In this document: one piece after another, positions 1 through 30,244 of the stretch | How positions within the stretch are numbered: position 1 is the stretch's first letter | Layout: the number at the start of each line of letters is the position of its first letter | NCBI GenBank assembly: GCA_040143965.1 | Contig: JASJQH010000079.1 | Location: forward strand, 1-32,901 | Source: Basidiobolus ranarum | Lineage: Eukaryota | Length of the DNA: 32,901 bases | Reading direction: 5' to 3' | Translations under genes and position numbers: made by a program | The notes under the pieces: generated by a model | Database searches by the model: none | What the model was told of the DNA's origin: nothing | Seen by the model: the letters and a program-made list of their open reading frames with translations, nothing else

Positions 1-5092
<5,092 letters not shown>

Positions 5093-7069: not shown

Positions 7070-8305
7070 GTTGAAGTTGTATAGAAAAATTGAACATATG
7101 AAGCTCTGTAGCCTGGATTACCTTTCACCTCTTACATATCACTGTCTCACAACCCACTTATTTGTTTGAAAATCCTCAAGATGGATATTGTCTTGACGGC
7201 TGATGAGAAAAACTTGTTATATATTGCAGCTTGAGACGACTGAGGAATATTATGGGTAAAGTAGATCTACATTTTCAATCCACCACAGATTAGGTTTGTC
7301 GGGGATTTTAAATTAGTGTCTACCTTACCCTCCTATCACATAGCTGTACTCATTCTAAGCTCCACTATTCTTCTCACAGTCCGACGCGAATTTGATTTTC
7401 CTTTCCGCTTCCCTTTCTAAATATCTTTTATTGTACAAAATCACAAAGAGATCCATCTGTTAAACCATGATCCCTAGAAGCGAATGAATATACAAATCAA
7501 ATGTACAAATGAAATGTACTTACCTACACTCGTGACTGCACAACTCATCTGAACAATGGTAGTAGTAGTCTTGAGGCTTGCACGATAAGCGTCGCATATG
7601 CTCGGAGATTCTCTTCCGATTTATCCTTCAGCCAAGTTCATGGCACCTTCCATTGCTTTCGATACAGTGAATTCAATCTAAATGTTATTAATTGTACGAG
7701 TTTCGTGGAGATTGCGGAAATTCTATTTTTGACTCCGTTTAGAGTGAAACATCTTTATATTATAGATCTTACTGAATCTACCTTTCGGAGGGTTCTTATT
7801 GGCCAACAGTGGGCATTGTTAAACAGGCTGCTCATAGCATATGGCCTGTACATGTTCGCTTCTCGTTACTACGGTGAGTTTCACGATCTAAGACGATCCA
7901 AATGAAGAGAACGTCAGTACTGAGATACCAGTTACTCAGTTTCTCCTAAATTATGATGACACTTTTTTGATTGCTTTACAATTAACATATAGACAGCTAT
8001 ACTGATTAATCTCTTCATCGGGATAATAAGAGAAGTTTAACCAATTATGTTCTACACTAGGAAAATAATCTTGCTTTTTAAAGCTAATGATTCTGTTTGA
8101 TTTAGATGACTGTTGTTTTTTCAATACTCCATTTTTAGACTCCTCCCTATATTAGCAGCTATTTTTGACTTTACTCGTGTTACAGTCCAACCTTCGCTCT
8201 TCTTCCTTACGTATTGACTTATTTTACCAAGTTGTAAGCATATACCCGCCCACTCTATATAGAAACTGTTTGTGTGCGGTTATCTGGGAGTAGATTCCTA
8301 AAAGT

Positions 8306-10553
8306 ATGCGGATTTTTTCCTTATATCAATATGTAGTTAGTATTTTCGCAACCCTGTGTATTTACTATGAAATTGCGGAAGCCTATCAGCCTCCCTCATC
8401 TTGTAATACTGACAAAGATTGTGTTGACTTAAGCATCGGTTTAAGCAGCCCGTCGGATGCTTCTGACTTTAAATCCACCCGTATTGGGGATTATATGTGT
8501 GTTCAGAAAAAGTGCCAATACATAGTAGCTGCTGGTGAGTAAACAGTTTATTTGGTGTTAGTCCTTTTTTATATTGTGTTTAGGAAAGAGACCATTGTAA
8601 ATTTTTATTCACACAATTATTTTATTAGGCGAATTATGTCGTGCTCCAGAGGAGTGTGCCTCGTATCAGAGCTACCTTCGTAATAACATGACTGCACCAC
8701 AAAACCTATGTTCGGCTAAATATTGTACTATTCAATCCACTTGCGACGGTGCTTGGACCTTACCTTATGCTCCAAACGGTTTAGAGAGCGGTTCTTGTTG
8801 TGGCGGAGTATTGTTAGACCAAAAGTGCTCTTTGTTATCCGGAGAAGTGAACTCATGTGAAGCAGGCTCTGGATGTGTTATTGAGAATAATGCAAGTACT
8901 CAGCAAAGAGGCGTAACGGTATCTGGAGTGTGCCAAGATATAAATGAAAAGCATTCAATTTGGATTGGCATTGTACTCGTATTGTTAGGCGGTACCACGC
9001 TAAACATAGGTCTGAACCTACAAAAGTTCGCTCTTAGAAAGAGTCAAGAGAAGAAAAAACTTCTAGAACAAAGCAATCATGAAAATCCACGCAACTCAGA
9101 AGACGTTAACCCACATCATACCATATTTCAAAAAATATCCCACTCATTGTCTAAAATCAACCCGGTATGTTTCTACTTGAGTGTCTCTTCGCTTTCATTA
9201 CTGGAATTCAAAACTAACCTCTTTTTTTGCAGGTATGGGTGGTGGGATTTGTTATTTATGTAGCGGCTAGTTTTCTCAACTTCATTGCGTTACAATTTGC
9301 GCCGCAATCGTTAGTGGCTCCTTTAGGGGCCATTTCGTTAGTTACCAACGTCGTAATTGCACCTATAATGAACAAAGAATCGCTTGGAAAGTTTGATATT
9401 ATCGGTGTGATAGTGATTATTGCCGGGTGTGTTTTGGTTGTTGTATTTTCAGGTGTTGTGGTTCAAGGTCAGTAGCGAACATTTCTCATTCAAATGTTGA
9501 CCAGATTCCGGATTGAAATTTACTTATTCTTTTACGTATAAAGATTACCGATTGTGTGTATTATTGAATTTATTCAGGCAGACTGCAACTATTGTATACC
9601 TTGTGCTCATATTTGGCTTCATAATCGTGGCTTTCTTTTACATCAAAATTATGGAGAAAAATATAGCCCCTGAGGATGTTGACACCCCCATGACCGTTCA
9701 ACCAGAACAACTTAGTTTGATCAATACAACTCAAACTCCGAAAGACAATCGTGTTAGCACATTGACATCTGCTGAAACTCTCAACGATGAAGGAATGCAA
9801 GGTATTCATAGCAATCTAAAAGTGACCAATAAAGGGGAACGAGAATCTATTATCGAATCTCATGACGGTCACGACAGTGAACATCCGATTTCCTCGGATG
9901 CATTCAGAGAACCGACAAATCCTCAAGAACCCAAGAAGCCCTGGGATCGATTACACCAACAATACCGAGCAATGTCGTTTATTCCAACATTACCAAAACC
10001 TATACCAAGATCTTCTTCAGCAGTACGCTTTGTACTCCCTTTGAGTTATGCATGTATTGGTGCTATGATGGCTACAATGACCACTTTATTCGCCAAGTCA
10101 TTGATCAACTTACTCTCCGTCTCAATCGTTCAAAAACAAAATCAGTTCACCAGTGGCCTTGCTTGGGTTATTTTGATAGTCACGATAATTACCGCATTTT
10201 CGCAGGTCTATTGGATCAACATGGGACTGCAGAGATATGACGCTATGCTACAAGTACCGGTCTTCTATGTCATCTGGTCAGTCTTCGATATCATCGGTGG
10301 AGGTAAGAGCACTTATTGACTAAAATACGATTACTTTGAACACTAACATGGTGCCATAAATTTAGGAATCTACTATAACGAATTCAAAGATTTCTCAGCA
10401 TTTCAGTATGGCATGTTCTGTCTTGGTGTATTGGTAATATTCAGTGGAGTAGCACTTCTATCCAAACGAATGTCTAAAATTACCAAAAAAGAAATTGAAT
10501 TTGAAAATGAACTACGTAACAATAGAGAAGCAGAGAGAGAATTAAACTCTTAA
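8306..10553 (+). CDS. NIPA-family (DMT superfamily) magnesium transporter with N-terminal signal peptide and Cys-rich extracellular region, 5 exons (8306-8534, 8629-9164, 9233-9467, 9544-10302, 10366-10553)
   Basis: NIPA motifs: IWIGIVLVLLGGTTLNIGLNLQKFALRK, WVVGFVIY..LNFIALQFAPQSLVAPLGAISLVTNVVIAPIMNKE, TTLFAKSL, QVYWINMGLQRYDAMLQVPVFYVIWS..IIGGGIYYNEF. The N-terminal exons splice in frame with GT-AG introns. Stop TAA at 10551-10553. Confidence 0.88.
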
Positions 10554-10938
10554 CATGACCTAGTGTAATCCCATCGAAATTATTATTACCATTAACTCAT
10601 TTTTCTTCCCACTTTTTCGTGAAATTTTCTTCATTTTTGGTGAACATATACTCCAGTTTCATTTCCGGCCTTGAATTTAACTTTTTTGTTTGTTGTTCAT
10701 TAGACAAGATGTACTTGTTTGCTCTCACCAATAATAGTAGGTGTACACTTAACACTTAATATCCTTGACTTCGATGTTAGGATATATTTGAAATACTCTG
10801 CATACAATAAAGCAAACAAATGGTTTGCCTTCAGAAACACTTTAGTTAATTTATTTATCTAATCTCGTTGCAGAAACCAAAGAAATGGGTATGGGTATCC
10901 ACTGTCAACAATAATTCCTAAGAAAATAAGGATTTTTA

Positions 10939-11289
10939 CTAAATAAGTTTCTCAAAATTAGAAGTTGGTCTTCCAATGGCAGCTTTTCCAGTGGTATTAT
11001 TGATCAGAATGGGACGTTGTAAAAGGTTTGGTTGTTCAGTGATAGAAAGAATGATCTGTTCTAGGTCTTGGTTATTTTCTACCTCGGAACGAATAAGTGA
11101 CGAATAGTCAGGGTTAAGTGCGAGACTGTTTGCAATCTTACGAAGGGAATCAGCAGAGGGTGGAGAATTCAGATATTCAATAATATCAACTTGTTCATCA
11201 AAATCGGTCAACCGTTGTTTTAACAGCTCAAGTCCTGCGCAGGACTTGCTACATGCTGGGTTATGATAGTAAGTAAACGCCTTTGACAT
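10939..11289 (-). CDS. arsC: ArsC-family (glutaredoxin-type/YfgD-like, thioredoxin-fold) arsenate reductase-like protein, intronless, 116 aa
   Basis: MSKAFTYYHNPACSKS..IIEYLNSPPS..LIRSE..QPNLLQRPIL..AAIGRP aligns by eye with the bacterial ArsC motifs HNPxC (catalytic Cys) and the Arg60/Arg94/Arg107 equivalents. The start at 11289 was chosen to match the bacterial N-terminus. Confidence 0.85.
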   Translation of the reverse strand: MSKAFTYYHNPACSKSCAGLELLKQRLTDFDEQVDIIEYLNSPPSADSLRKIANSLALNPDYSSLIRSEVENNQDLEQIILSITEQPNLLQRPILINNTTGKAAIGRPTSNFEKLI

Positions 11290-11572
11290 GATGATTCGTG
11301 AAAGTTGCATACAACAAGTGAAGCATGATACCACATAAAATGATGACGGTGGCTGATCTTTTTTTTACTTGGTAATCATATCAAATTACAAAACTGATGG
11401 AATTGGAGGAATTGGGGAGCTAAACTGTATAGTAATGTACAATAATAGCAATCCTTAACTAGTGTTATACTCAAATTAGCTGCACCAATGGGTGTCACAT
11501 AATCAATGGAACCATAGCTATCGCATTTCCTAGATTAAATATCCCAATGACACTGAAAAAAATATAGTGAAA

Positions 11573-11806: not shown

Positions 11807-13331
11807 ATGCCTGGAACACCTGTCAGAAGCGCTCCTTTTAGTCCACTGACCCCTAAGCAGGCACAACCACTCATCAACTATCTTAATTCTGGAAGAAAGA
11901 AAGCTCGCTCTCCCAGAGGAAAAACTCCCAAATCTTTATATCGTTCCTCTTCCTTTGAAGTAGTTGCGAAAGATTGGCTTGCCACTGGTACAACTCCTAA
12001 AAAAGGGAAAAAAATTCAAACTCATGTAAGTTACAACTTTAAAAGTTCTGTGAACTATTTACTTATATTTACCTTTACAGTATGATAGATTTATTCCAAA
12101 CCGTGAAGCTATGGATCTTTCCAATTCACAATTTCACATTGCTCATAAGGATATGACCAAGGAGCAAATGCTCGATAGTGCTGCATTAGCATACCAAGAG
12201 CAAGTGGCCAAAGCGTGTGGAATTGCTCTTGATAAAAGAATATTAGCCTTTAAAGGTGCCCCACCCACCAATGACAAAGAAGATTTACGTAAAATCTACA
12301 ATCGTCCCTTAAAGACGTCTGTATCTCAATTATCCAAACGGAAAATCTTGAATGCACCTGAAAGAGTTTTGGATGCTCCAGGACTTATCGATGATTATTA
12401 CTTGAATTTATTGGATTGGTCTTGTGCTAATATCGTAGCTATCGGACTGGATAAGAATATTTATCTTTGGAATGCCGATACTGGAGATGTTAGTGGATTG
12501 TGTGAAACTGCTTCTTCAGATTTGATCACCTCTTTATCCTGGTCAAATGATGGTGCGTATCTCGCTGTTGGTACTGATGAAGGAGACACACAGATCTGGG
12601 ATATCGAGTCAAGCACTAAGATTCGTTCTATGCCTGGCCATCTTGCCAGAGTTGGTGTTCTTTCTTGGGATAAACACATGTTATCTTCAGGTTGCCGTGA
12701 CGGTAGTATCTGGAATCATGATGTTAGAATTGCCAATCACAAAACCGCCGAACTTCTAGCACATACCTCAGAAGTATGTGGTCTGAAATGGAGATCCGAT
12801 GGTACTCAACTTGCCAGTGGAGGAAATGATAATTTAGTAAATATTTGGGACGCAAGATCAAGTGTACCTAAATTCACTAAGCACAACCATACTGCAGCAG
12901 TCAAAGCTCTCGCTTGGTGTCCTTGGCAACCCAATCTACTCGCCACTGGTGGCGGTTCCAATGATCGTCATATTCATTTCTGGAACACAACCACCGCCGC
13001 TCGGTTGAATTCTATCGACACTGGGTCTCAAGTAACTTCGTTGATTTGGTCTCCCGAATATAAAGAAATCATGTCATCCCATGGATTCCCAGACAATCAC
13101 ATCTCCATATGGAACTACCCATCACTATCCAAGGTGATAGATATTCCCGCTCACGAAACCAGAGTTTTACATACTGCATTGAGTCCCGATGGACAAACAG
13201 TTGCTAGTGTTGCTAGTGATGAGAATCTCAAATTCTGGAAGGTATTCGAAAGCTCTGGTAAGGGAACTAAATCCATACGTAAGGAGAAAGCCTCGGAATC
13301 ATTTGGTTATTCTGGAATGACTATTCGTTAA
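11807..13331 (+). CDS. CDC20: APC/C activator Cdc20/Slp1/Fizzy, 2 exons (11807-12025, 12081-13331)
   Basis: C-box DRFIPNR immediately after the intron, RILAFK (KILR/Mad2-binding-like) motif, ERVLDAPGLIDDYYLNLLDWS, WD40 propeller, C-terminal IR tail (MTIR*), and N-terminal TP/SP CDK sites. Confidence 0.96.
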
Positions 13332-14403: not shown

Positions 14404-16038
14404 ATGTCTGCTATTAGAAGAGCCCCCGTATTATTAAGAACTTGCCCTAGAAGCGGTTTAAACGCAGCTCGTGTAGTTCCCGCCATTCACGCCACCAAAA
14501 CTGCCCTCAAGTCAGCTAGACATTTATCTACTATCACGTAAGTATTATTAGAGTTTGAAATATTCTATGGTTACGATAGAAAGCAAATAGAAAAGAAGTT
14601 TACTTGAAGTTATTCTTATTTTCATAATATTGATTATTTTGCTTCAATCTAGTCCAACAACCCGCATTTTACGTTCTACTGTTCCTTCCTCCATTCGTTC
14701 CGTCTTGGTTCGTGCTTATAGCTCTGATGGTGGGTGATATATGGAATTTTATCGATAATTTTTACCTCACATACTAATATTTTCTTAGCTCTTCCTGCTC
14801 ATACCAAGATTAATATGCCCGCTCTTTCTCCTACCATGACTGCTGGTAACATTGGTGTCTGGCGTAAGCAAATTGGTGATGAAATTGTCCCAGGTGATGT
14901 CTTAGTTGAGATTGAAACTGATAAAGCTCAAATGGATTTTGAATGCCAAGATGAAGGATATTTGGCCAAGATCATCATTGATAGCGGTGCTAAGGATATT
15001 TCCATTAACACTCCCATTGCTATCATGGTGGAGAATAAGGAAGATGTGGATAAATTCAAGGATTATGTTGTTGAGGAGGATACTCCTGCCCCCGTTGCTG
15101 AATCTAAGCCAGAGGAACCTAAAGCTCAAGAGAAATCTACCTCTACTCCTACCACTACTGCCTCCGCCCCATCTACCGACCGTATCTTCGCCAGTCCTTT
15201 AGCCAAAAAGTTGGCCAAGGAGGGAAGTATTGAATTATCTGAGGTCAAAGGATCTGGTCCTCACGGTAGAATTGTAAAGGCTGATATTGATGGATTTGTT
15301 CCATCTGCTGCTCCTCAAACCGCCACATCTGATGTCGCTTCCGGAAATTACACCGACATTCCTGTCAGCAACATGAGAAAGGTGATTGCCGGTAGATTGA
15401 CTGAATCCAAACAAACCATTCCTCATTACTACTTGACTAGTGAAGTTAACATGGATAAAGTCCTTAAATTACGTGAAGTTCTTAACAGCCAAGCTAATGA
15501 TCAATACAAACTCTCAGTTAATGATTTCGTCGTCAAGGCTTCTGCTTCAGCTCTCAAGGAAATTCCTGAGGTTAATAGCGCTTGGTATGGTGATTTCATC
15601 AGACAATTTAACGCTGCTGATATCTCCATTGCCACCGCTACTCCCTCAGGTTTGATCACTCCTATCGTTCAAAACGCTGATACTAGAGGTTTGGTCTCCA
15701 TCTCCAAGACCGTTAAGGAATTGGCTAACAAGGCTAGAAATAACGAATTGAAGCCCCAAGAATACCAAGGTGGCAGCTTCACCATCTCCAACTTGGGAAT
15801 GTTTGGTATTAACTCATTCACCGCCATTATTAACCCACCACAATCATGCATCCTTGCAGTCGGTGCCACTCAAAAGAAGATCATCCCCGATTCTAGCAAA
15901 GAATCCGGATTCGCAGTTGGTAATGTAATGAACGTTACCTTATCTTGTGATCATCGTGTTGTTGACGGTGCCGTTGGTGCTCAATGGTTAAAGGCATTCA
16001 AAGCATACCTTGAAAACCCATTGAAGATGCTCTTGTAA
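14404..16038 (+). CDS. LAT1: Pyruvate dehydrogenase E2, dihydrolipoamide acetyltransferase, mitochondrial; 3 exons (14404-14537, 14653-14729, 14789-16038)
   Basis: Arg/Ser-rich presequence (MSAIRRAPVLLRTCPRS..VRAYSS), lipoyl domain MPALSPTM..VEIETDKAQMDFE, E3-binding domain ASPLAKKLA..GSGPHGRIVKADI, and catalytic DHRVVDGA. Confidence 0.97.
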
Positions 16039-16542: not shown

Positions 16543-19500
16543 TTACAAAGGTGAATGCAACCCTAGCTTAGTGTTGAATTCTAGTTTGGATCGTTTCTGG
16601 AAACGAACGAATTGTTTTCTATCATGCATCTTGACCAATTCTTGCACAGGAACCACGATTAATGGAGAGCCCAGGCCAATTAAGTAGACAAACCACGGTA
16701 AAGTAGATAATTCGATAGGACCACGGAAAAGTGATAATACACAGAAAACCACTTGAAGAATAACGCTATTTACAGTGAATGAGTATATTTTCTATATCAA
16801 GATATACTCGAAGTACTAACCAGATTATCGCACAGATCATCCAAACCACGTTTCTGTAAGGTGGGAATTTTCTTAAAGACAGTGTGCGATTCACAAAAGT
16901 GGATGAGATCCACACTAGATGATTAGGGTGCATCTTTGGGTTAGTTACTACAATAAAGATGTAAGGCGAAGATTGAACTTTACCTATATTCCACACAAAA
17001 ACAAATAAGGCGTAATTTTGAGCGTACAGTACTTCCCATTGCTGGGAGTCAGATAGGTGAGACCAGGCAGTATGGCCAACGAAGTTGAAAGCAGAGCTTG
17101 ATCTATCTCCAAAATAATACAGAGATCTAATAGAAAAAGATTAGTCTTAAAACAAGCCTCATATTTCTTCAGGTCTCCACCTACAAGATGTATACTAAAA
17201 CGGTCAATATAACCGTCAATAAAAACCGGGAGAAGGCGTAAAAGAAAAATCGCCAGTAGTCTTTCAAATGGTCTATGTTTTTTCCTGACGAATAGAATCA
17301 CGATATATACAGTTAGAACAGGTAGACGAAAGAAACTTTGATAACGTATGGCATCAGATAAGTAATTTACCAGTCATGGTTGTCATAGTGTTCGTTTCAT
17401 GAGGCGAAAATAACAATGAGATCGCAAGAATAGGGCAAATGATCCATAGAGTCCATAAAATCTGATAACCGGTGAACAACAAAGGTTGCAGGAAACAATA
17501 AGATAAGAGTAACGATAGAGATATGGCAAAATAGGCAGCGACTGAAAAAGATAATCCCTATATCGCGAAACGAAATCAGAAAATAGTTTTGAAAGGAAAC
17601 CGGTTGGGTAACGAAACAAACCTGGCGTATTCCGTTTAATAAGCGACGGGCTTCTCGAATTACTTGTGCTAGAGCATATAAACTCGTATCATGCTGCAGA
17701 AATAAGGCACAAGGAATGCTGGTGAGTGAAGCACCGATAGAAAACGGTGATTGAGTTTGCTTGGTCTCTGAAGATCGTAAACGGGACTGAAATCGGGTAT
17801 GCATTGGTTCGATAGCGACACTGATATCAGCCTTGGAGATTATAATGACATTCAATATTAGAATGACTCGATTCATATGTGGGTGTTTTGACTGAAGAAA
17901 ATACTTACACTTGCAAATGCTCCAGTGTTGCTAGAGTTCAGCGCACTACCAACGCAGCATACGACCTCTCCGTACTCTTGGAAAATTTTAATCATTTCCC
18001 TGACAGCATCCGAATTACACTCCGCGAAAAGAGATACATGTAGGGGAATATCATCTACATTTTCTAGATGTGGGCGAATATTCTCTATACCTCGTGGGAG
18101 TCGAGCTTTAATATCATGAGATTCCAAGTATCCTGAACCGGCACCTTCGTCATCGTCATGTGAAGACAATAAGATACAAGAGTTCCAATCAGTTTCTAGT
18201 CCCAATCTTTCAGCAAATGCTACGAGAATAATGCTATATTAATGGCAGTTATGTAAGTTTGAAATTACTAAGAGAGTGTCTACCTTTACTCTCTCTTTCA
18301 GCTGAGGAAGAGAAATATACGAATCGTATTCCAGCTAATCCAAAGTCATCGATGGAGTTGCAAACATCCTTGAACGAATGGTAAAAAGTTAGTTACTTAA
18401 ACGCAACTCTTTTCAAAATACTAAATTCAAGCTTACTGCTTTTGGTTGGTGGCACAGAGTGGCCATCCCTAAAAAGATCTGGCCTTTAACAACTTCTTTA
18501 AAGAAAAGTGCCTCTTCCTCCTTGCTAACTTGTCCATTGAATTGAAATCCATCCTCATTGTCGATTGATGCAGATACTTTACGAGCACGTCTCTTCCAGT
18601 GTTTAGAATCTTCGATTTGATAAGGGACGAGTGAATCAGAAGGCTCTGAAAGCTCTTTGGACCAAGGGATATCCATGTATACAAAATCTGAGTCGGCCCT
18701 GCCTTTAAGGAACGGAATTTTCCCATCGTTATCAATGTTAATTGGTCGATAGGAAAAACCGACACATTGCATATCATTGACCACAGACTTCTCGTAAAAA
18801 TCAATGATTTTGTCTACCATCTGATAATTACAAAGGGAGTTGTAAGAATGATTACAGCATAGAGATATAATCTATAAAATAAATATTTACTCCATCATCT
18901 AGAGCATTAAGCTGCTCTCCATTCCAATAATCTGAGCAAAAATCTATGATAAGTTCGACATTACCATCGGATAGAAGCTGGTAGCTTCCTGATTAGCAAA
19001 GTATAAAGGGTGAATTAATAAACGTGGGTTATCTTCGATCTCTTTGGATGAATTACCTGAATTTAACTCTTCATATATAGTTGATAAAATGTTTGGAACC
19101 TCATACTGATGGTGTCGAAGTGAATGTAATACAGAGAGATAATAAGGAGAAAATGTGCCGATATCTTTCTTTTTGGAAAAGGTTGCTAAAGCATTGTCGG
19201 AGAACCCAATTTCTTTTCCTAATCGACATAGACACGCTATGAAATATATATGAATATAAGATTTGAAAATGCCATAGTGTAAAAGACTAACATTGTCGTG
19301 AAGGAAGTAGCCGCGCGTGATCATGAATGGATGAAAATTTTCGATGATGATCTGCTCGACGACGTCCTTGACGTACTCCACAATCGGTGTTGAGCAGTAG
19401 ATTTAAACCTAATGGTTTAAGTGACCTAAGAATCCCGAGTAAGAAAATAGTAGCTGTATATTGGTACACTTCATACTTACGGAAGGTATTTTTGCCAATC

Positions 19501-21187
19501 TCTATCTTCAAACTGTATTCCGTTTGAATTGAAGGAATTCTCTGTCAAGTCTAAAGCTGTCAACTCGTCATCATCAGTTGGAAAAAGTATTTGTTCCACT
19601 GAAGGGTAAGGCTATATATTTTCATAATAGAGTACGTGAAATGTCAGACACATTTATATTCTAGCGTAAGGAAACTTTTTTACGAACCGAAGCTATTGTG
19701 CCTTCTTTATCGATTGAGCAGATTACGGTTGTCGATCCTAAGGATTCCAAAAGGTTTGTTGAACGAGTGAGCGACATACGATCCCATTTGGTAAGCAGAG
19801 ACCAAAATCTATTCCATACAGCAGCTGTCGTAAACAAGTATAAGAAAAAGAACACAAAAACATACTAAAAGTCAAGATAGCTTACTGCGACTCAATTCAA
19901 CATCTTTAGTGGGTGGTGGAGCTTCGGCATCAAACTCATCTTCTTCATCCTCAAACTCTGTCTTTGATATCTGTAATGCTTCGAACAATGTCAAAATCTT
20001 AGCATTACCATATGAACGAGCTAAGACCCATAAAGTAGGAAATGACAAAGGGAGGAAAGGGAGCACAACGTATACTTGAAGAAGAACAATTGTTTCAAAT
20101 CCGTCTTCGGCTTGGTGTTCGTGAATAACATCCTGGAAAACGTAACGCGCGATATTTACTATCATAGAAGCGGCTAGGATTACCCATAGCAATCGTTTTA
20201 GGAGTTTCTGAACAAGAACATTAATTTGATTGTGAATGATAGTATTCGGCCGAGTTTCCACGAAAGCTGGTGGAAGATTAAACGATATAGGGGTTTCTTG
20301 AAGGATGAACCAAAACCTGCCTTGGCACTGTATATTCTTTTTTGAAATTGGAACTTGAGGAGGTATCCCAAATAACGTGGGTTTGAACACTTGATTTCTT
20401 TCCAAAGAATACTCAAGTAGAGATTCGGACGTCTCTAAATCAGCTTGATATACGTGAACCATTTTACAGGGGGCAATATCTCCGTATCTCATTTCCACAA
20501 TGTCACCTTTAACCAACAGATTATCGGGTAAAATTTTGTGCACACAGTCTCGGATTACTTTTACTGAAGAAACTGAAGGTATCCCTGGTATTCTCAACAT
20601 CTTAACACAAAATAGTTTAGAAAAATTCATAATGAAATAAAGCATATAAATATAACTACCGGTTGAGCCAGATTCGTTCCAATTATCTCAACTTCTTCAT
20701 ATATAGCTTGAGCTCGATCACGAACTTCAGTAATAGTCAGGTATTTCTCACGTTGGTATAGATACCCATTCCACAAATATAATGCGATAACAAGAATTCC
20801 CTCAACTAACACACCAGTAACTCGCCACTGATATGGAGAGGTAATTAGGCTTGCATAGATATAAAATGCAATCAGGAGAAGTGCACATAAAAGAGTAAAG
20901 AGTGAGAGAGGTTTCGTCGCATATTCTATAAGGTCTAATAAAGATATAGTAAGTATCGGCCACAATGCATGTATATATAAATATATGTATGTATTTACAA
21001 GCTTTCCGTTCCAGAGTCTTTGAATAAGTTCCAATCAATTCGCTTATGGTATCTAGTAGTATCCTACGAGAATAAAAGTTAGTTTTTAATTCTTCATTAA
21101 GATTTCTTTTACATACTTGTTTGCTTGAGTACTAGTTAAGGATCTCTTTTCAGTAAGAACCTCTTCAGTGTGTCGTGAATTGGCCAT
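16543..21187 (-). CDS. TMEM94: TMEM94 (KIAA0195/ERMA) homolog, degenerate P-type ATPase-like membrane protein, about 18 exons
   Basis: Spliced product starts MANSRHTEEVLTEKRSLTSTQANK. It contains LLVKGDIVEMRYGDIAPC, LESLGSTTVICSIDKEGT, SLKPLGLNLLLN, CLCRLGKEIGFS, QIFLGMAT, GIRFVYFS..ESKAFAERLGLETDWNSCI, ARLPRGIENIRPHLENVDDIPLHVSLF, MIKIFQEYGEVVCCVGS, and ends KLEFNTKLGLHSPL*. These are TMEM94 signature segments. GT-AG introns keep frame at the junctions traced. Confidence 0.92.
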
Positions 21188-26584: not shown

Positions 26585-27703
26585 CTAATCTTTCGTAATC
26601 TTGGCTTCCAGGGATTGGAACCAAGGGTCTTGCATTACTTCTTCAATAGTAGCTCGCCTATTAGGATCAATGGTCAGCATCCGTTTAATAAGCGGAATTG
26701 CTTCTGGAGGACATTGTTTAAATAACGAAAGTGAGTCCCAAGAGCTCATAAAAAGAGCGAAATTTTTGTCATCAACTGTTGCTTTCTCCCATGGGAAGAT
26801 CCGTGTCAACATGCCAATGTAGAGAACTCCTAAAGCCCATATGTCATCCTTGGATGGATCGTAACTCTCGGTAGTCCATACTTCTGGAGCAATAAAAGTG
26901 CTAGAACCGATCACACCACTAGCAAGGACATGCTCACTACTGAAGGGACTACGGAAGTTGGTGGCGAATCCAAAATCAATGATTTTCAAATGGCCATCTT
27001 CTCCAATACACAGATTTTCAAGTTTAAGATCACGATGAGCTACTCCACGAGAATGTAGATGAGCAAGACCGCGTACTAGCTCTACGAAGTACCGGTTAAC
27101 CTCATCTGTGGTAGGGTTTGATTCCTCGAATACTGTAAATAGATCGCGTGGGCAGTACTCCATGACCTGATAAATTCTCCCATATTCCTCCAAGACATCC
27201 ACCGTACGAATGATGTTCTCATGGTGTAAAGATGCGGCGATGTAGATCTCATTACTAATACTCATGCAATATTCTCTTGGGGTTTCATAAGGGTAACGAC
27301 AACGGAATGCTTTGACCGCATACTTTTTGCCGGTTATTGGTGAAGAAGTTGGATAAACTTCTCCTCCAGAGCCCAGGCAACATGGCTTGGTAAATTCACC
27401 GTAAAGCTCTTTCAATGATTGGTGATCCTTGCGTTTTTTCAAAGCGGCAAAAAGAGGCAGGTCACAAAGAGAAGGTTGACCCTTGACCTGAGCCCAACGA
27501 GATTTCTTCTGTGGTGATGAGCAAAGCGCTTTGAAAATAAACCGAGATGGAATGGGAGAACCCAGTGATATTTCCGAAGAACTACTTGATGATGAGCATA
27601 GTTCTGGCACAGGTTCATGAGAAGGATCATAAATATCTACTTTGTGGAATGGGATGGGCACCCCTTTGCTAGGATCCGTTGGTTGAGAATGTACAAGAAC
27701 CAT
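26585..27703 (-). CDS. Ser/Thr protein kinase, HAL/NPR (Sat4/Hrk1-like) family, intronless, 372 aa
   Basis: YAVKAFR, ISNEIYIAASLHHENIIRTVD, VMEYCPRDLF, GVAHRDLKLENL, LKIIDFG, FIAPEV, DIWALG, FPWEKA, DPNRRATIEEV. The YAVKxFR..E..I..SLHHxNII and FPW pattern is typical of fungal HAL-family kinases. Confidence 0.9.
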   Translation of the reverse strand: MVLVHSQPTDPSKGVPIPFHKVDIYDPSHEPVPELCSSSSSSSEISLGSPIPSRFIFKALCSSPQKKSRWAQVKGQPSLCDLPLFAALKKRKDHQSLKELYGEFTKPCCLGSGGEVYPTSSPITGKKYAVKAFRCRYPYETPREYCMSISNEIYIAASLHHENIIRTVDVLEEYGRIYQVMEYCPRDLFTVFEESNPTTDEVNRYFVELVRGLAHLHSRGVAHRDLKLENLCIGEDGHLKIIDFGFATNFRSPFSSEHVLASGVIGSSTFIAPEVWTTESYDPSKDDIWALGVLYIGMLTRIFPWEKATVDDKNFALFMSSWDSLSLFKQCPPEAIPLIKRMLTIDPNRRATIEEVMQDPWFQSLEAKITKD

Positions 27704-27735
27704 TTTGATGATGTTAGAGCAGATGGTATCTTGCC

Positions 27736-27743
27736 TTTATATA
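27736..27743 (-). promoter_or_regulatory. TATA box (TATATAAA) upstream of the kinase
   Basis: Minus-strand cagTATATAAAggc lies ~33 nt upstream of the kinase ATG at 27703. Confidence 0.5.
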
Positions 27744-29362: not shown

Positions 29363-30244
29363 TCATTTATTTTCGGGTAATGCAGCAGGGTTTGGTCTAG
29401 CATTGAAGAAGGTGTAAGATAAAGTGATTGTATCCACATCATCCATCCATGGATCCTCGGCGAACTCCGGGTCAATAAAAAAGAATACTGGCATATCTAC
29501 TTCTTCTCCAGCTGCAAGTTTTTGTTCTTCAAAGCAAAAGCATTGAATCTTATTGAAGTACTGACCTACTTTTATAGGAGTAACATTATAGGTAGAGATA
29601 CCAATGATATCATGGTCAGCTTTATTCTGTGCCACATAGAAAGCCAGCGCAGTTTCACCTGGTAAAACGTTCACTTCTCTTTGTTGTGGCTTAAAAGTCC
29701 ATTCCAGCAAGTTTGATACGTTGCTAGAAAAAGTGATCTTTAGTCTACGCGAATTCGTGACTGGAACCAGATTCTCCGGTTCAAATGTATGATTTATGTT
29801 AGGTGTTCCACCAAACCCAGTTGTTGCACAGAACATACGATACAAAGGAACGGCTGCGTATGAAAGTCCTAATACCACTATCAGAAGAGAGGTACTATAC
29901 ATTAAGTGCTCCCAGTTTTTAGCCCTTTGGTATTTACGGTAATTTGCGTACATAGGATTGGCTTCATATTTACTTGCACTATTACTAAAGTTACGAAGGC
30001 TGTTTTGTTGAAGGAAACTCGGGCGTTGCCAGGCTTGCGGGGAGGCTTTTAAAAGTGGAGCACTAGTACTCTATCAATATACATATACCGTTACCAAAAG
30101 TAAGACTTTGAATATGACACGAATAGAACTTACGAGTTGTTTTTCAGAGAGTCTAAGATATTGGCTACCACTAGGTCTAACTCTAGACAAGAGTAGTTGT
30201 CTTAAAGAACCAGTAGACGCTCTTAAACCAGGAGTAAAAATCAT
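29363..30244 (-). CDS. COX11: Cytochrome c oxidase assembly copper chaperone Cox11, 2 exons (30244-30134, 30070-29363)
   Basis: Presequence MIFTPGLRASTGSLRQLLLSRVRPS, TM segment ending LSYAAVPLYRMFC, Cu-binding YFNKIQCFCFEEQ, VDMPVFFFIDPEF, ITLSYTFF. Confidence 0.96.

What the first reader, a model, noticed from the sequence alone, without database searches (positions are those of the whole stretch)
8306..8960. NIPA Mg2+ transporter fused to a signal peptide and ~190-aa Cys-rich ectodomain: candidate transceptor
Seen: hydrophobic leader ending AEA|Y, then about 15 cysteines (SCNTDKDC, YMCVQKKCQY, GELCRAPEEC, LCSAKYCTIQSTC, SCCGG, QKC, NSCEAGSGC, GVCQ) with an NAS sequon. This runs without a stop into NIPA TM1 (IWIGIVLVLLGG), and most of it shares exon 2 with TM1, so the fusion is not a splicing artefact. 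Known: characterised NIPA/NIPAL proteins have short N-termini with no disulfide-rich domain. CxxDxDC and GExCxxxxxC spacings recall small disulfide modules (Dickkopf/EB/colipase-like). Inference: a ligand-gated or sensing transporter architecture. I do not know of it being described. A ~120-aa disordered loop (9660-10020) could be a signalling tail.
Basis: partly seen in the sequence, partly recalled or inferred. Interest (0 to 1): 0.7.

Follow-up and report, generated by a model that had tools for sequence, protein, structure and literature searches.

The report
Cysteine-rich outer cap on fungal NIPA transporter
This Basidiobolus ranarum gene encodes a NIPA-type membrane carrier that carries a signal peptide and a compact 15-cysteine outer domain welded to its first membrane helix, a layout shared by many early-diverging fungi that I did not find described in print, though nothing shows that it is a sensor.

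Summary
A five-exon gene (8306-10553, + strand, 648 aa) encodes a hydrophobic leader, a ~158-aa domain with 15 cysteines, and then a NIPA (PF05653) membrane core. Residues 77-184 of the domain share exon 2 with TM1, so this is not a merger of two genes.

The window is a Basidiobolus ranarum contig. The deposited model (591 aa) misses the last exon.

All 15 cysteines are conserved in relatives from Basidiobolus, Kickxellomycotina, Mortierello-/Glomeromycotina and chytrids. In every search the domain was found only in front of a NIPA TM1, usually exactly 10 residues from the last Cys to the conserved Trp. Pfam has no family for it. AlphaFold gives a confident compact fold (pLDDT 83) with no significant PDB match; the best are colipase and knottins, both weak.

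A 16th near-invariant Cys lies in the outer 4-5 loop, where human NIPA2 has its gating "acidic staple". That staple is absent here.

My reading is a rigid outer cap on the transporter's gate, possibly disulfide-linked to that loop. I found no evidence for a transceptor, and the "signalling tail" is a poorly conserved, disordered cytoplasmic loop.

This scan already noted the same layout in a microsporidian (e1-599525). My literature searches found no description. I class it as a new variant of a known kind, of moderate interest.

The parts
8306..8383 (+). Signal-peptide-like leader, aa 1-26 (MRIF...AEA, followed by YQPP)
   Evidence: Read directly from the sequence. On a crude hydropathy test, 36 of 48 relatives with a complete N-terminus also have a hydrophobic leader. 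SignalP was not available.
8384..8534 (+). Ectodomain, N-terminal part (aa 27-76: C33, C39, C65, C70); end of exon 1
   Evidence: Gene model. The cysteines are conserved. The donor GTGAGT begins at 8535.
8535..8628 (+). Intron 1 (94 nt, phase 1)
   Evidence: GT...AG ends. The spliced reading equals the deposited protein P0001 across this junction.
8629..8951 (+). Ectodomain, main part (aa 77-184: C80, C86, C104, C109, C115, C133, C134, C143, C153, C159, C178; sequons N96 and N164), in exon 2
   Evidence: phmmer with this stretch gave 12 hits, all followed by a NIPA TM1. AlphaFold model of the ectodomain alone: pLDDT 82.9, pTM 0.80.
8955..9044 (+). TM1 of the NIPA core (aa 186-215, IWIGIVLVLLGGTTLNIGLNLQKFALRK), in the same exon as the ectodomain
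   Evidence: The open frame 8601-9263 is continuous. W188, G190, N202, G204, L205, N206 and K209 are invariant. The model has a helix at 184-227.
8629..9164 (+). Exon 2 as a whole (ectodomain, TM1 and the cytoplasmic 1-2 loop)
9233..9467 (+). Exon 3: TM2-TM4 (FAPQSLVAPLG motif)
   Evidence: Pfam Mg_trans_NIPA, E 1.1e-13.
9555..9557 (+). Codon of Cys338 in the outer 4-5 loop (DYRLCVLL): the candidate 16th cysteine
   Evidence: Nearly invariant in the subfamily. It aligns with N140 of human NIPA2, five residues after that protein's acidic patch.
9544..10302 (+). Exon 4: 4-5 loop, TM5, disordered loop, TM6-TM8
   Evidence: Pfam Mg_trans_NIPA, E 6.2e-07. Model helices.
9660..10013 (+).
   Evidence: pLDDT below 50 for aa 384-457. 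Median identity 13%. No Pfam domain.
10366..10553 (+). Exon 5: TM9 and C-terminal tail with stop codon; missed by the deposited 591-aa model, which reads into intron 4 (...GGGKSTY)
   Evidence: Splice sites GTAAGA...TAG. Paralog P0003 and orthologs continue GGGIYYNEF... just as exon 5 does.

Best explanation
The gene encodes a NIPA-family (DMT-fold, 9-TM) carrier of an early-fungal subfamily. Its N-terminus, which lies outside the cell or in a lumen, has been extended by a cleavable leader and a compact, disulfide-rich domain of about 155 aa.

Shown here:
- The fusion is real and lies partly in one exon with TM1.
- All 15 cysteines are conserved.
- The domain is found only in front of this NIPA core.
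- The spacer to TM1 is short and fixed.

Inferred:
- The domain is an integral outer cap that sits on the top of helix 1.
- Helix 1 is part of the 'hinged lid' in human NIPA2.
- The cap's odd 15th cysteine probably pairs with the conserved Cys338 of the outer 4-5 loop.
- That loop is the one that staples the two lobes shut in NIPA2. Its acidic staple is missing in this subfamily.

The cap would therefore shape or control access to the outward-facing cavity, through substrate capture, selectivity or gate stability, rather than signal to the cell. The substrate is unknown. The Mg2+ label is inherited from mammals, and the key Glu70 of NIPA2 is Ser here.

Confidence that the architecture is real and conserved is about 0.95. 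Confidence in the gate-cap mechanism is about 0.45, and the figure below refers to the mechanism.
For: Gene model and shared exon.

NIPA identity: PF05653 at E 4.7e-22 for P0001 and 1.7e-30 for the paralog. Human NIPA2 chains 9z7s/9z6n match at E 1.7e-11.

Conservation:
- 8 of 8 hits with exon 2 are NIPA proteins from Basidiobolus, Dispira, Coemansia and Synchytrium.
- 12 of 12 phmmer hits among 1.84 billion representatives carry TM1 directly after the domain.
- 18 of 18 profile hits carry PF05653.
- Median identity to P0001 is 34% for the ectodomain, against 13-14% for the cytoplasmic loops and 55-67% for the TM blocks.

Rigid coupling: the distance from the last Cys to the TM1 Trp is 10 residues in 56 of 67 proteins and 9-13 in 66 of 67.

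Sixteenth cysteine:
- It is present in 63 of 67 proteins with a recognisable TM4 end. The four misses are three broken or mis-matched models and P0083.
- It is present in 9 of 12 further Glomeromycotina models; the other three diverge or end after TM4.
- The three relatives with complete N-termini and no ectodomain (P0083, P0084, P0085) lack it, and NIPA2 has Asn there.

Topology and gating roles of helix 1 and the 4-5 loop: PMC13500462, sections 7 and 11.

Outside location: the N96 sequon is kept in 10 of 25 relatives.

Compact fold: pLDDT 82.9, pTM 0.80.
Against: - I could not see coordinates or the error matrix of either model, so neither docking of the cap on the core nor a Cys338 partner has been observed.
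- The link between the loop Cys and the ectodomain rests on only two or three independent lineages without the domain, so shared ancestry confounds it.
- The odd cysteine could equally be free or bridge two protomers, since NIPA2 is a dimer.
- No transcript data could be obtained.
- 13 of 85 stored relatives gave no ectodomain hit. Most look like truncated gene models, but I did not prove that.
- Structural searches with the full model did not clearly recover the DMT fold above helical background: SLC35B1 Z 9.1 and Gdx Z 8.9 among unrelated helical hits, and no Foldseek match at E 0.001 or better.
Confidence: 0.45

Rival explanations
1. Biogenesis or stability module. The disulfide-rich domain helps folding, ER exit, dimer formation or survival of the carrier in the oxidising, protease-rich wall space. 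It might also tether the carrier to wall material. It takes no part in the transport cycle.
For: Compact knotted folds are typical stabilisers. The model is confident, but its only PDB echoes are small disulfide-stabilised proteins such as colipase and knottins. NIPA2 is a dimer (PMC13500462, section 7), so an outer domain could add to that interface. The sequon at N96 is partly conserved.
Against: A pure stabiliser would not need a fixed 10-residue spacing to helix 1. Nor would it explain a co-occurring Cys in the gating loop together with loss of the acidic staple. The domain has 34% median identity across phyla with many non-Cys positions kept, for example YCT[IL][QE]STCDGAWTL, which suggests a specific surface.
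Confidence: 0.3
2. Transceptor or ligand-gated carrier. The ectodomain binds an external ligand and either opens the carrier or signals through the cytoplasmic loops.
For: A conserved outer domain sits next to the lid helix. NIPA regulation is unknown (PMC13022745, passages). There are large cytoplasmic insertions in the 1-2 and 5-6 loops.
Against: No known ligand-binding fold was found: best Foldseek E 0.034, best VIA Z 3.4. A profile search of PDB sequences gave 0 hits at E up to 10. The cytoplasmic loops are disordered, vary in length from tens to hundreds of residues, have 13-14% identity, and carry no Pfam domain. That is a poor basis for a conserved signalling output.
Confidence: 0.1
3. 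Annotation artefact: two neighbouring genes, a small secreted Cys-rich protein and a NIPA carrier, were wrongly merged.
For: No transcript data were available. One fungal NIPA 'fusion' in the literature is suspected to be a gene-calling error (PMC11291939, one passage), although that case involves a different domain.
Against: One uninterrupted frame (8601-9263) holds 11 of the 15 cysteines and TM1. The same order recurs in independent gene calls from many genomes. No stand-alone version of the domain turned up in a search with no length limit.
Confidence: 0.02

Closest known systems
Human NIPA2 (PDB 9Z6N, 9Z7R, 9Z7S, 9Z7T; Karuppan et al. 2026, PMC13500462) and the NIPA/NIPAL family, Pfam PF05653
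   Same: The membrane core is the same. PF05653 is matched above threshold and phmmer gives E 1.7e-11 to NIPA2. Nine TM helices are predicted with the N-terminus outside. Site residues Q232, G89 and S92 are kept, and Y252/Y253/F256 are kept as F/Y/W (read from the printed alignment of paralog P0003).
   Different: NIPA2 starts a few residues before TM1; this protein has a leader plus a 15-Cys domain. NIPA2 Glu70, which is needed for Mg2+ and nucleotide transport, is Ser here and Asn in most relatives. The acidic patch E133-E135 of the 4-5 loop is VVQ. A conserved Cys replaces N140. There are long disordered inserts in the 1-2 and 5-6 loops. Some relatives are annotated 'NIPA-like protein 3'. 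I did not test which human paralog is closest.
Microsporidian NIPA with a Cys-rich cap
   Same: The described layout is the same, and that note also states that free-living early fungi have it.
   Different: I did not see that sequence and could not test whether the domains are homologous. A word look-up with my exon 2 found no look-alike window in the scan.
Colipase / Dickkopf / prokineticin-type and knottin-type small disulfide folds
   Same: Weak local likeness. Colipase 1lpb_A: Foldseek E 0.034, prob 0.57, TM 0.21/0.35. Colipase 1eth_B: Z 3.3, rmsd 7.4 over 65 residues. Mu-agatoxin: Z 3.4, rmsd 2.4 over 36 residues, on model residues 105-152.
   Different: No match reaches significance and none covers the whole domain. 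The cysteine order of the last six (CC-C-C-C-C) is not, from memory, the usual knottin pattern. There is no sequence match to any PDB chain.
Carriers with N-terminal outer domains, such as the ZIP4 extracellular domain and the NPC1 N-terminal domain (recalled, not tested here)
   Same: The concept is the same: a signal peptide and a disulfide-bearing outer domain in front of TM1 of a multi-pass transporter, which assists substrate delivery or transport rate.
   Different: The membrane folds and outer-domain folds are unrelated. This is a comparison from memory and is offered only as an analogy.

Membership tests
NIPA / Mg_trans_NIPA (PF05653), DMT superfamily | Profile match above Pfam's gathering score | tested here: met
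   P0001 scores 78.9 bits against a cut-off of 26.2 (E 4.7e-22). Exon 3 alone scores 51.5 bits and exon 4 scores 29.3 bits.
NIPA / Mg_trans_NIPA (PF05653), DMT superfamily | Sequence relation to a solved member | tested here: met
   Paralog P0003 against human NIPA2: E 1.7e-11, in two stretches (TM2 to TM5 and TM6 to TM9).
NIPA / Mg_trans_NIPA (PF05653), DMT superfamily | Nine TM helices with the N-terminus outside | tested here: met
   The model has helices at 184-227, 255-277, 280-301, 308-331, 347-372, 492-529, 538-564 and 567-586. A ninth hydrophobic segment at aa 596-623 is encoded by exon 5. The leader plus Cys-rich domain with sequons fits an outside N-terminus. The topology itself is inferred from NIPA2.
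NIPA / Mg_trans_NIPA (PF05653), DMT superfamily | DMT fold recovered by structure comparison | tested here: inconclusive
   SLC35B1 gives Z 9.1 (rmsd 3.0 over 122 residues) and Gdx-Clo gives Z 8.9, but these do not stand out from unrelated helical proteins. Foldseek found no match at E 0.001 or better.
NIPA2-type Mg2+/nucleotide transport | Substrate site 1 glutamate (E70) | tested here: not met
   E70 aligns with Ser265 of P0003, which is Ser268 of the window protein, and with Asn in most relatives.
NIPA2-type Mg2+/nucleotide transport | Other site residues (Q232, G89, S92, aromatic Y252/Y253/F256) | tested here: met
   They align with Q, G, S and F/Y/W in the printed alignment.
NIPA2-type Mg2+/nucleotide transport | Acidic patch E133-E135 in the 4-5 loop (lobe staple) | tested here: not met
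   It aligns with VVQ. A conserved Cys follows five residues later.
NIPA2-type Mg2+/nucleotide transport | Measured Mg2+ or nucleotide flux | not testable with these tools
   This needs liposome or cell assays. According to PMC13022745 (passages), no non-mammalian NIPA has been characterised.
Colipase/Dickkopf-like fold | Significant structural match over the domain | tested here: inconclusive
   Best Foldseek match E 0.034, TM 0.21/0.35. VIA Z 3.3.
Knottin (inhibitor cystine knot) | Significant structural match of a six-Cys module | tested here: inconclusive
   Z 2.0-3.4 on model residues about 103-155, with 28-42 residues aligned.
EB module (PF01683) / DUF7107 (PF23416) | Profile match above Pfam's gathering score | tested here: not met
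   DUF7107 matches 5 of 11 ectodomains, best E 0.021, and the window's own ectodomain scores 13.7 bits against a cut-off of 24.6. EB matches 3 of 11, best E 0.17.
Transceptor (transporter-receptor) | Conserved cytoplasmic signalling tail or domain | tested here: not met
   The 1-2 and 5-6 loops have 14% and 13% median identity, low pLDDT and no Pfam domain.
Transceptor (transporter-receptor) | Ligand-dependent signalling | not testable with these tools
   This needs experiments.

The most novel reading that the evidence does not exclude
The 15-Cys domain is covalently stapled, through the conserved 16th cysteine of the 4-5 loop, to the outer gate of the carrier. There it replaces the acidic staple of NIPA2. 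The result would be a built-in lid whose opening depends on an external ligand or on the redox state of the wall space. That would be the first DMT-fold carrier with its own extracellular gate-sensor. It would be ancestral to fungi (chytrids to Glomeromycotina, and microsporidia according to an earlier scan note) and apparently not kept in Dikarya.
Probability: 0.2. Interest if true: 0.75.

Novelty: new variant of a known kind. Interest (0 to 1): 0.5.

Why it matters
According to the reviews and the 2026 structure paper I read, NIPA carriers are poorly understood, and their regulation and even their true substrate are open questions. This subfamily places a conserved, foldable outer domain directly on the lid helix. 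It also swaps the gating staple for a cysteine. That gives a natural handle for testing how the outer gate of NIPA carriers is controlled.

The subfamily occurs in fungi of practical interest, including Batrachochytrium, Synchytrium and arbuscular mycorrhizal fungi. It also defines a disulfide-rich domain family that matched no Pfam model above threshold and no PDB structure significantly in my searches.

The practical gains from this window are smaller: a corrected gene model for K7432_002815, and a caution that the 'Mg2+ transporter' label is not backed by the key NIPA2 glutamate.

Tried and rejected
- Complex prediction with the TM core (aa 186-586) and the ectodomain (aa 27-185) gave score 0.03 against a mark of 0.34, verdict 'no answer'. 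The alignments were not used by the tool. This says nothing either way about docking.
- The protein-atlas search on aa 27-185 gave no usable hit.
- A profile of the ectodomain against PDB sequences gave 0 hits at E up to 10.
- Foldseek with the full model gave no match at E 0.001 or better; the top rows are ABC exporters, which is helical noise.
I therefore could not count NIPA paralogs in the genome or check expression.
- The search of earlier findings by place and by sequence returned nothing.
- My first gene model used 8307 as the start and gave a nonsense frame. I corrected this.
- The weak Nodulin_late (E 0.024) and OSTbeta (E 0.029) matches of single exons are far below cut-off, and I took them as chance.
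- Kex2-type release of the domain: dibasic pairs occur just before TM1 in some relatives (for example TKRH, GKRF), but not in Basidiobolus (EKHS). I rejected this as a conserved feature.
- I could not establish absence from Dikarya or animals. I can only say that no such hit appeared. Two of those depend on shared 5-residue words.
Full report
**What is in the window**

The window is a 32,901-base contig with 38% G+C. A search with exon 2 returned a 100% identical protein, K7432_002815 of Basidiobolus ranarum, on a contig of exactly that length. B. ranarum belongs to the phylum Basidiobolomycota.

Reading 7600-11200 and its open frames gives a five-exon gene on the + strand:
- Exons: 8306-8534, 8629-9164, 9233-9467, 9544-10302 and 10366-10553.
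- All four introns (94, 68, 76 and 63 nt) have GT...AG ends, and the product is 648 aa.
- My first attempt used 8307 as the start and gave nonsense. The finding's 8306 is correct.
- The deposited model (591 aa) agrees through exon 4, then reads into intron 4 (...GGGKSTY) and loses the last helix.
- The paralog K7432_003838 and the orthologs continue GGGIYYNEF..., exactly as exon 5 does.

**The observation**

The protein begins with the leader MRIFSLYQYVVSIFATLCIYYEIAEA, followed by YQPP. Then come about 158 residues with 15 cysteines (aa 33, 39, 65, 70, 80, 86, 104, 109, 115, 133, 134, 143, 153, 159, 178) and two sequons, N96 and N164. The rest of the mature protein has 4 Cys in 464 residues.

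The frame 8601-9263 is open from ELCRAPEEC through IWIGIVLVLLGG. So 11 of the 15 cysteines and TM1 lie in one exon.

Exons 3 and 4 match Pfam Mg_trans_NIPA (E 1.1e-13 and 6.2e-07). The whole deposited protein scores 78.9 bits against a cut-off of 26.2.

**Conservation and distribution**

- Exon 2, searched against longer proteins, found 8 of 8 NIPA proteins from B. ranarum (a 660-aa paralog), B. meristosporus (two N-truncated models), Dispira, Coemansia and the chytrid Synchytrium.
- The 107-aa exon-2 part of the ectodomain, run by phmmer against 1.84 billion representatives with no length limit, gave 12 hits at E 0.001 or better. Every one has the NIPA TM1 directly after the domain, including the three short fragments of 189, 227 and 303 aa. 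No stand-alone copy and no other fusion partner appeared.
- A profile of 11 ectodomains (A2) found 18 proteins, and 18 of 18 carry PF05653. This added Dimargaris, Ramicandelaber and the Glomeromycotina genera Funneliformis, Glomus, Rhizophagus and Cetraspora.
- A search with TM1-TM5 of the paralog listed 79 proteins. They come from Kickxellomycotina, Mortierellomycotina (some named 'NIPA-like protein 3'), Glomeromycotina, many chytrids (Batrachochytrium, Rhizoclosmatium, Chytriomyces and others) and Gonapodya. The group names are from my own knowledge of fungal taxonomy.
- Of the 85 proteins then held, 72 match my ectodomain HMM, each at E 1.6e-08 or better.
- The 13 that do not match are mostly models whose TM1 lies 23-79 residues from the start, or partial records. 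I take these as truncated gene calls but did not prove it.
- Three of the 13 have complete N-termini without the domain: P0083 and the pair P0084/P0085.
- Each of the 15 cysteines is a Cys in every sequence that covers its column. Over 45 sequences, 10 are invariant and 5 nearly so.
- Median identity to the window protein is 34% for the ectodomain, 67%, 55% and 67% for the three TM blocks, and only 14%, 13% and 17% for the two cytoplasmic loops and the leader.
- On a crude hydropathy test, 36 of 48 relatives with a complete N-terminus have a hydrophobic leader.
- No Dikarya or animal protein appeared. This is non-detection, not proof of absence.

**What the domain is**

Pfam has no family for it. 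DUF7107 matches 5 of 11 ectodomains (best E 0.021) and the EB module matches 3 of 11 (best E 0.17), all below cut-off. The profile finds nothing in PDB sequences at E up to 10.

AlphaFold2 on the ectodomain with 45 aligned sequences gives a confident compact model (pLDDT 82.9, pTM 0.80). It is mostly short strands and helices, with one floppy stretch. In the full-length model the same region has pLDDT 81-89 in most blocks.

- Foldseek against the PDB has no match at E 0.001 or better. The best is pancreatic colipase (1lpb_A, E 0.034, prob 0.57, TM 0.21/0.35).
- The Foldseek-independent aligner has no Z of 5 or more. Its best rows are mu-agatoxin (Z 3.4, rmsd 2.4 over 36 residues), colipase 1eth_B (Z 3.3, rmsd 7.4 over 65) and a run of knottins on model residues about 103-155.

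The domain as a whole has no recognisable relative.

**Relation to the solved NIPA2**

It pointed me to the 2026 cryo-EM study of human NIPA2, PMC13500462. I read the abstract, section 7 part 1 and the discussion.

That study reports:
- Nine helices, an extracellular N-terminus and a dimer formed through helices 4 and 9.
- A 'hinged lid' made of the tops of helices 1 and 2 together with helix 3.
- An outer 4-5 loop whose acidic patch E133-E135 staples the lobes in the occluded state.
- Passive transport of both Mg2+ and nucleotides.
- E70, Q232 and F256 as essential residues.

phmmer of the paralog against PDB sequences finds NIPA2 at E 1.7e-11. From the printed, ungapped alignment:
- E70 aligns with Ser (Ser268 in the window protein; Asn in most relatives).
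- The acidic patch aligns with VVQ.
- N140 aligns with the Cys of DYRLCVLL.
- G89, S92 and Q232 are kept, and Y252/Y253/F256 appear as F/Y/W.

**The sixteenth cysteine and the fixed spacer**

The loop cysteine (Cys338, codon 9555-9557) is present in 63 of 67 proteins with a recognisable TM4 end. The four misses are a model that skips the segment (P0002), a truncated model (P0079), a wrong motif match (P0080) and P0083, which has Asn and no ectodomain.

It is also present in 9 of 12 Glomeromycotina models that my first pattern missed; the other three diverge or end after TM4. It is absent from P0084/P0085, which have no ectodomain and keep the Glu.

Fifteen conserved outer cysteines plus one conserved cysteine in an outer loop make eight possible pairs.

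The distance from the last ectodomain Cys to the TM1 Trp is 10 residues in 56 of 67 proteins and 9-13 in 66 of 67.

**How it most likely works**

Shown: a conserved, foldable, disulfide-rich domain is fixed by a short invariant spacer to the top of helix 1 of a NIPA core. That core has lost the NIPA2 acidic staple and gained a loop cysteine.

Inferred: the domain is a rigid outer cap on the gate, probably disulfide-bonded to the 4-5 loop. It would govern access to the cavity, capture substrate or hold the gate, rather than signal.

I put this at about 0.45. A pure folding, stability or dimerisation role gets about 0.3, a transceptor about 0.1 and a gene-merging artefact about 0.02.

I could not inspect model coordinates, so the disulfide and the docking have not been observed. 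The co-occurrence argument rests on two or three independent lineages. The substrate is open: the 'Mg2+ transporter' name is inherited, and the essential glutamate is missing.

**The 'signalling tail'**

The stretch 9660-10013 encodes the TM5-TM6 loop. By the NIPA2 topology this loop is cytoplasmic. It is disordered in the model (pLDDT below 50 for aa 384-457). Its length varies widely among relatives, it has 13% median identity and it has no Pfam domain. Only the last 30 or so residues before TM6 are somewhat conserved. Nothing marks it as a signalling module.

**Literature**

Five full-text searches gave no paper describing a Cys-rich ectodomain on a NIPA protein. The term sets were:
- NIPA, magnesium transporter, cysteine-rich, fungi
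- NIPA-like, N-terminal, disulfide, ectodomain
- DUF803, fungi
- NIPA, Rhizophagus, magnesium
- NIPA, signal peptide, cysteine-rich domain, transporter

Passages of two reviews state that Mg2+ transport by NIPA in native cells is largely unconfirmed, and that regulation and non-mammalian members are uncharacterised (PMC9276622; PMC13022745). One paper mentions a chytrid NIPA fused to a glycoside hydrolase as a possible gene-calling error. That case is unrelated to this domain (PMC11291939, one passage). I did not consult any supplements.

**What could not be done**

- Sequencing-run look-up, the window's whole genome and cluster membership were not available. Expression, paralog counts and the names of some hits therefore remain open.
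- The complex prediction gave no verdict, and the Atlas gave nothing.
- Structure comparison of the 591-aa model placed the DMT relatives SLC35B1 (Z 9.1) and Gdx (Z 8.9) near the top, but not clearly above unrelated helical proteins.

**Verdict**

It is a new variant of a known kind, already noted once by this scan in another fungus. I score its interest at about 0.5.

Noticed in passing
window 10303-10553: The deposited model of K7432_002815 (591 aa) reads into intron 4 and ends ...GGGKSTY. Splicing 10302 to 10366 restores the ninth helix and a C-tail (IYYNEFKDFSAFQYGMF...) that matches the paralog and the orthologs.
   Followed up: yes
P0021, P0042, P0049, P0050, P0052 and other Kickxellomycotina relatives, between the leader and the domain: Many Coemansia-type orthologs have a short extra stretch with one or two cysteines and a dibasic 'FKRD/AKRD' site between the leader and the first conserved Cys. 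It looks like a Kex2-type propeptide. Basidiobolus lacks it.
   Followed up: no
P0027 (Cetraspora), P0056 (Siphonaria), P0082 (Racocetra): A few relatives carry extra Pfam domains ahead of the NIPA core: RCC1-type repeats, a UBC domain and PNP_UDP. These are probably merged neighbouring genes rather than true fusions.
   Followed up: no
window 10939-11364 (- strand): An ArsC-family (Spx/ArsC-like) open frame (Pfam E 6.5e-07) lies tail-to-tail just downstream of the NIPA gene. The other neighbours are ordinary housekeeping genes: CDC20/Fizzy WD40 at 12054-13331, a 2-oxoacid dehydrogenase E2 at 14728-16038, a protein kinase at 26585-27736 (- strand) and Cox11 at 29363-30070 (- strand).
   Followed up: partly
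window 631-2673 (+ strand) and 17397-21034 (- strand): Several long open frames (283, 396, 177, 152, 152, 271 and 135 aa) have no Pfam match at E 1e-4 or better. I did not examine them further.
   Followed up: no
P0072, P0077, P0078 (chytrid-like relatives), 4-5 loop: In these three the loop cysteine sits two residues earlier (DYCLAVLL instead of DYxLCVLL). That is a shift of about half a helical turn and could bear on the disulfide idea.
   Followed up: no
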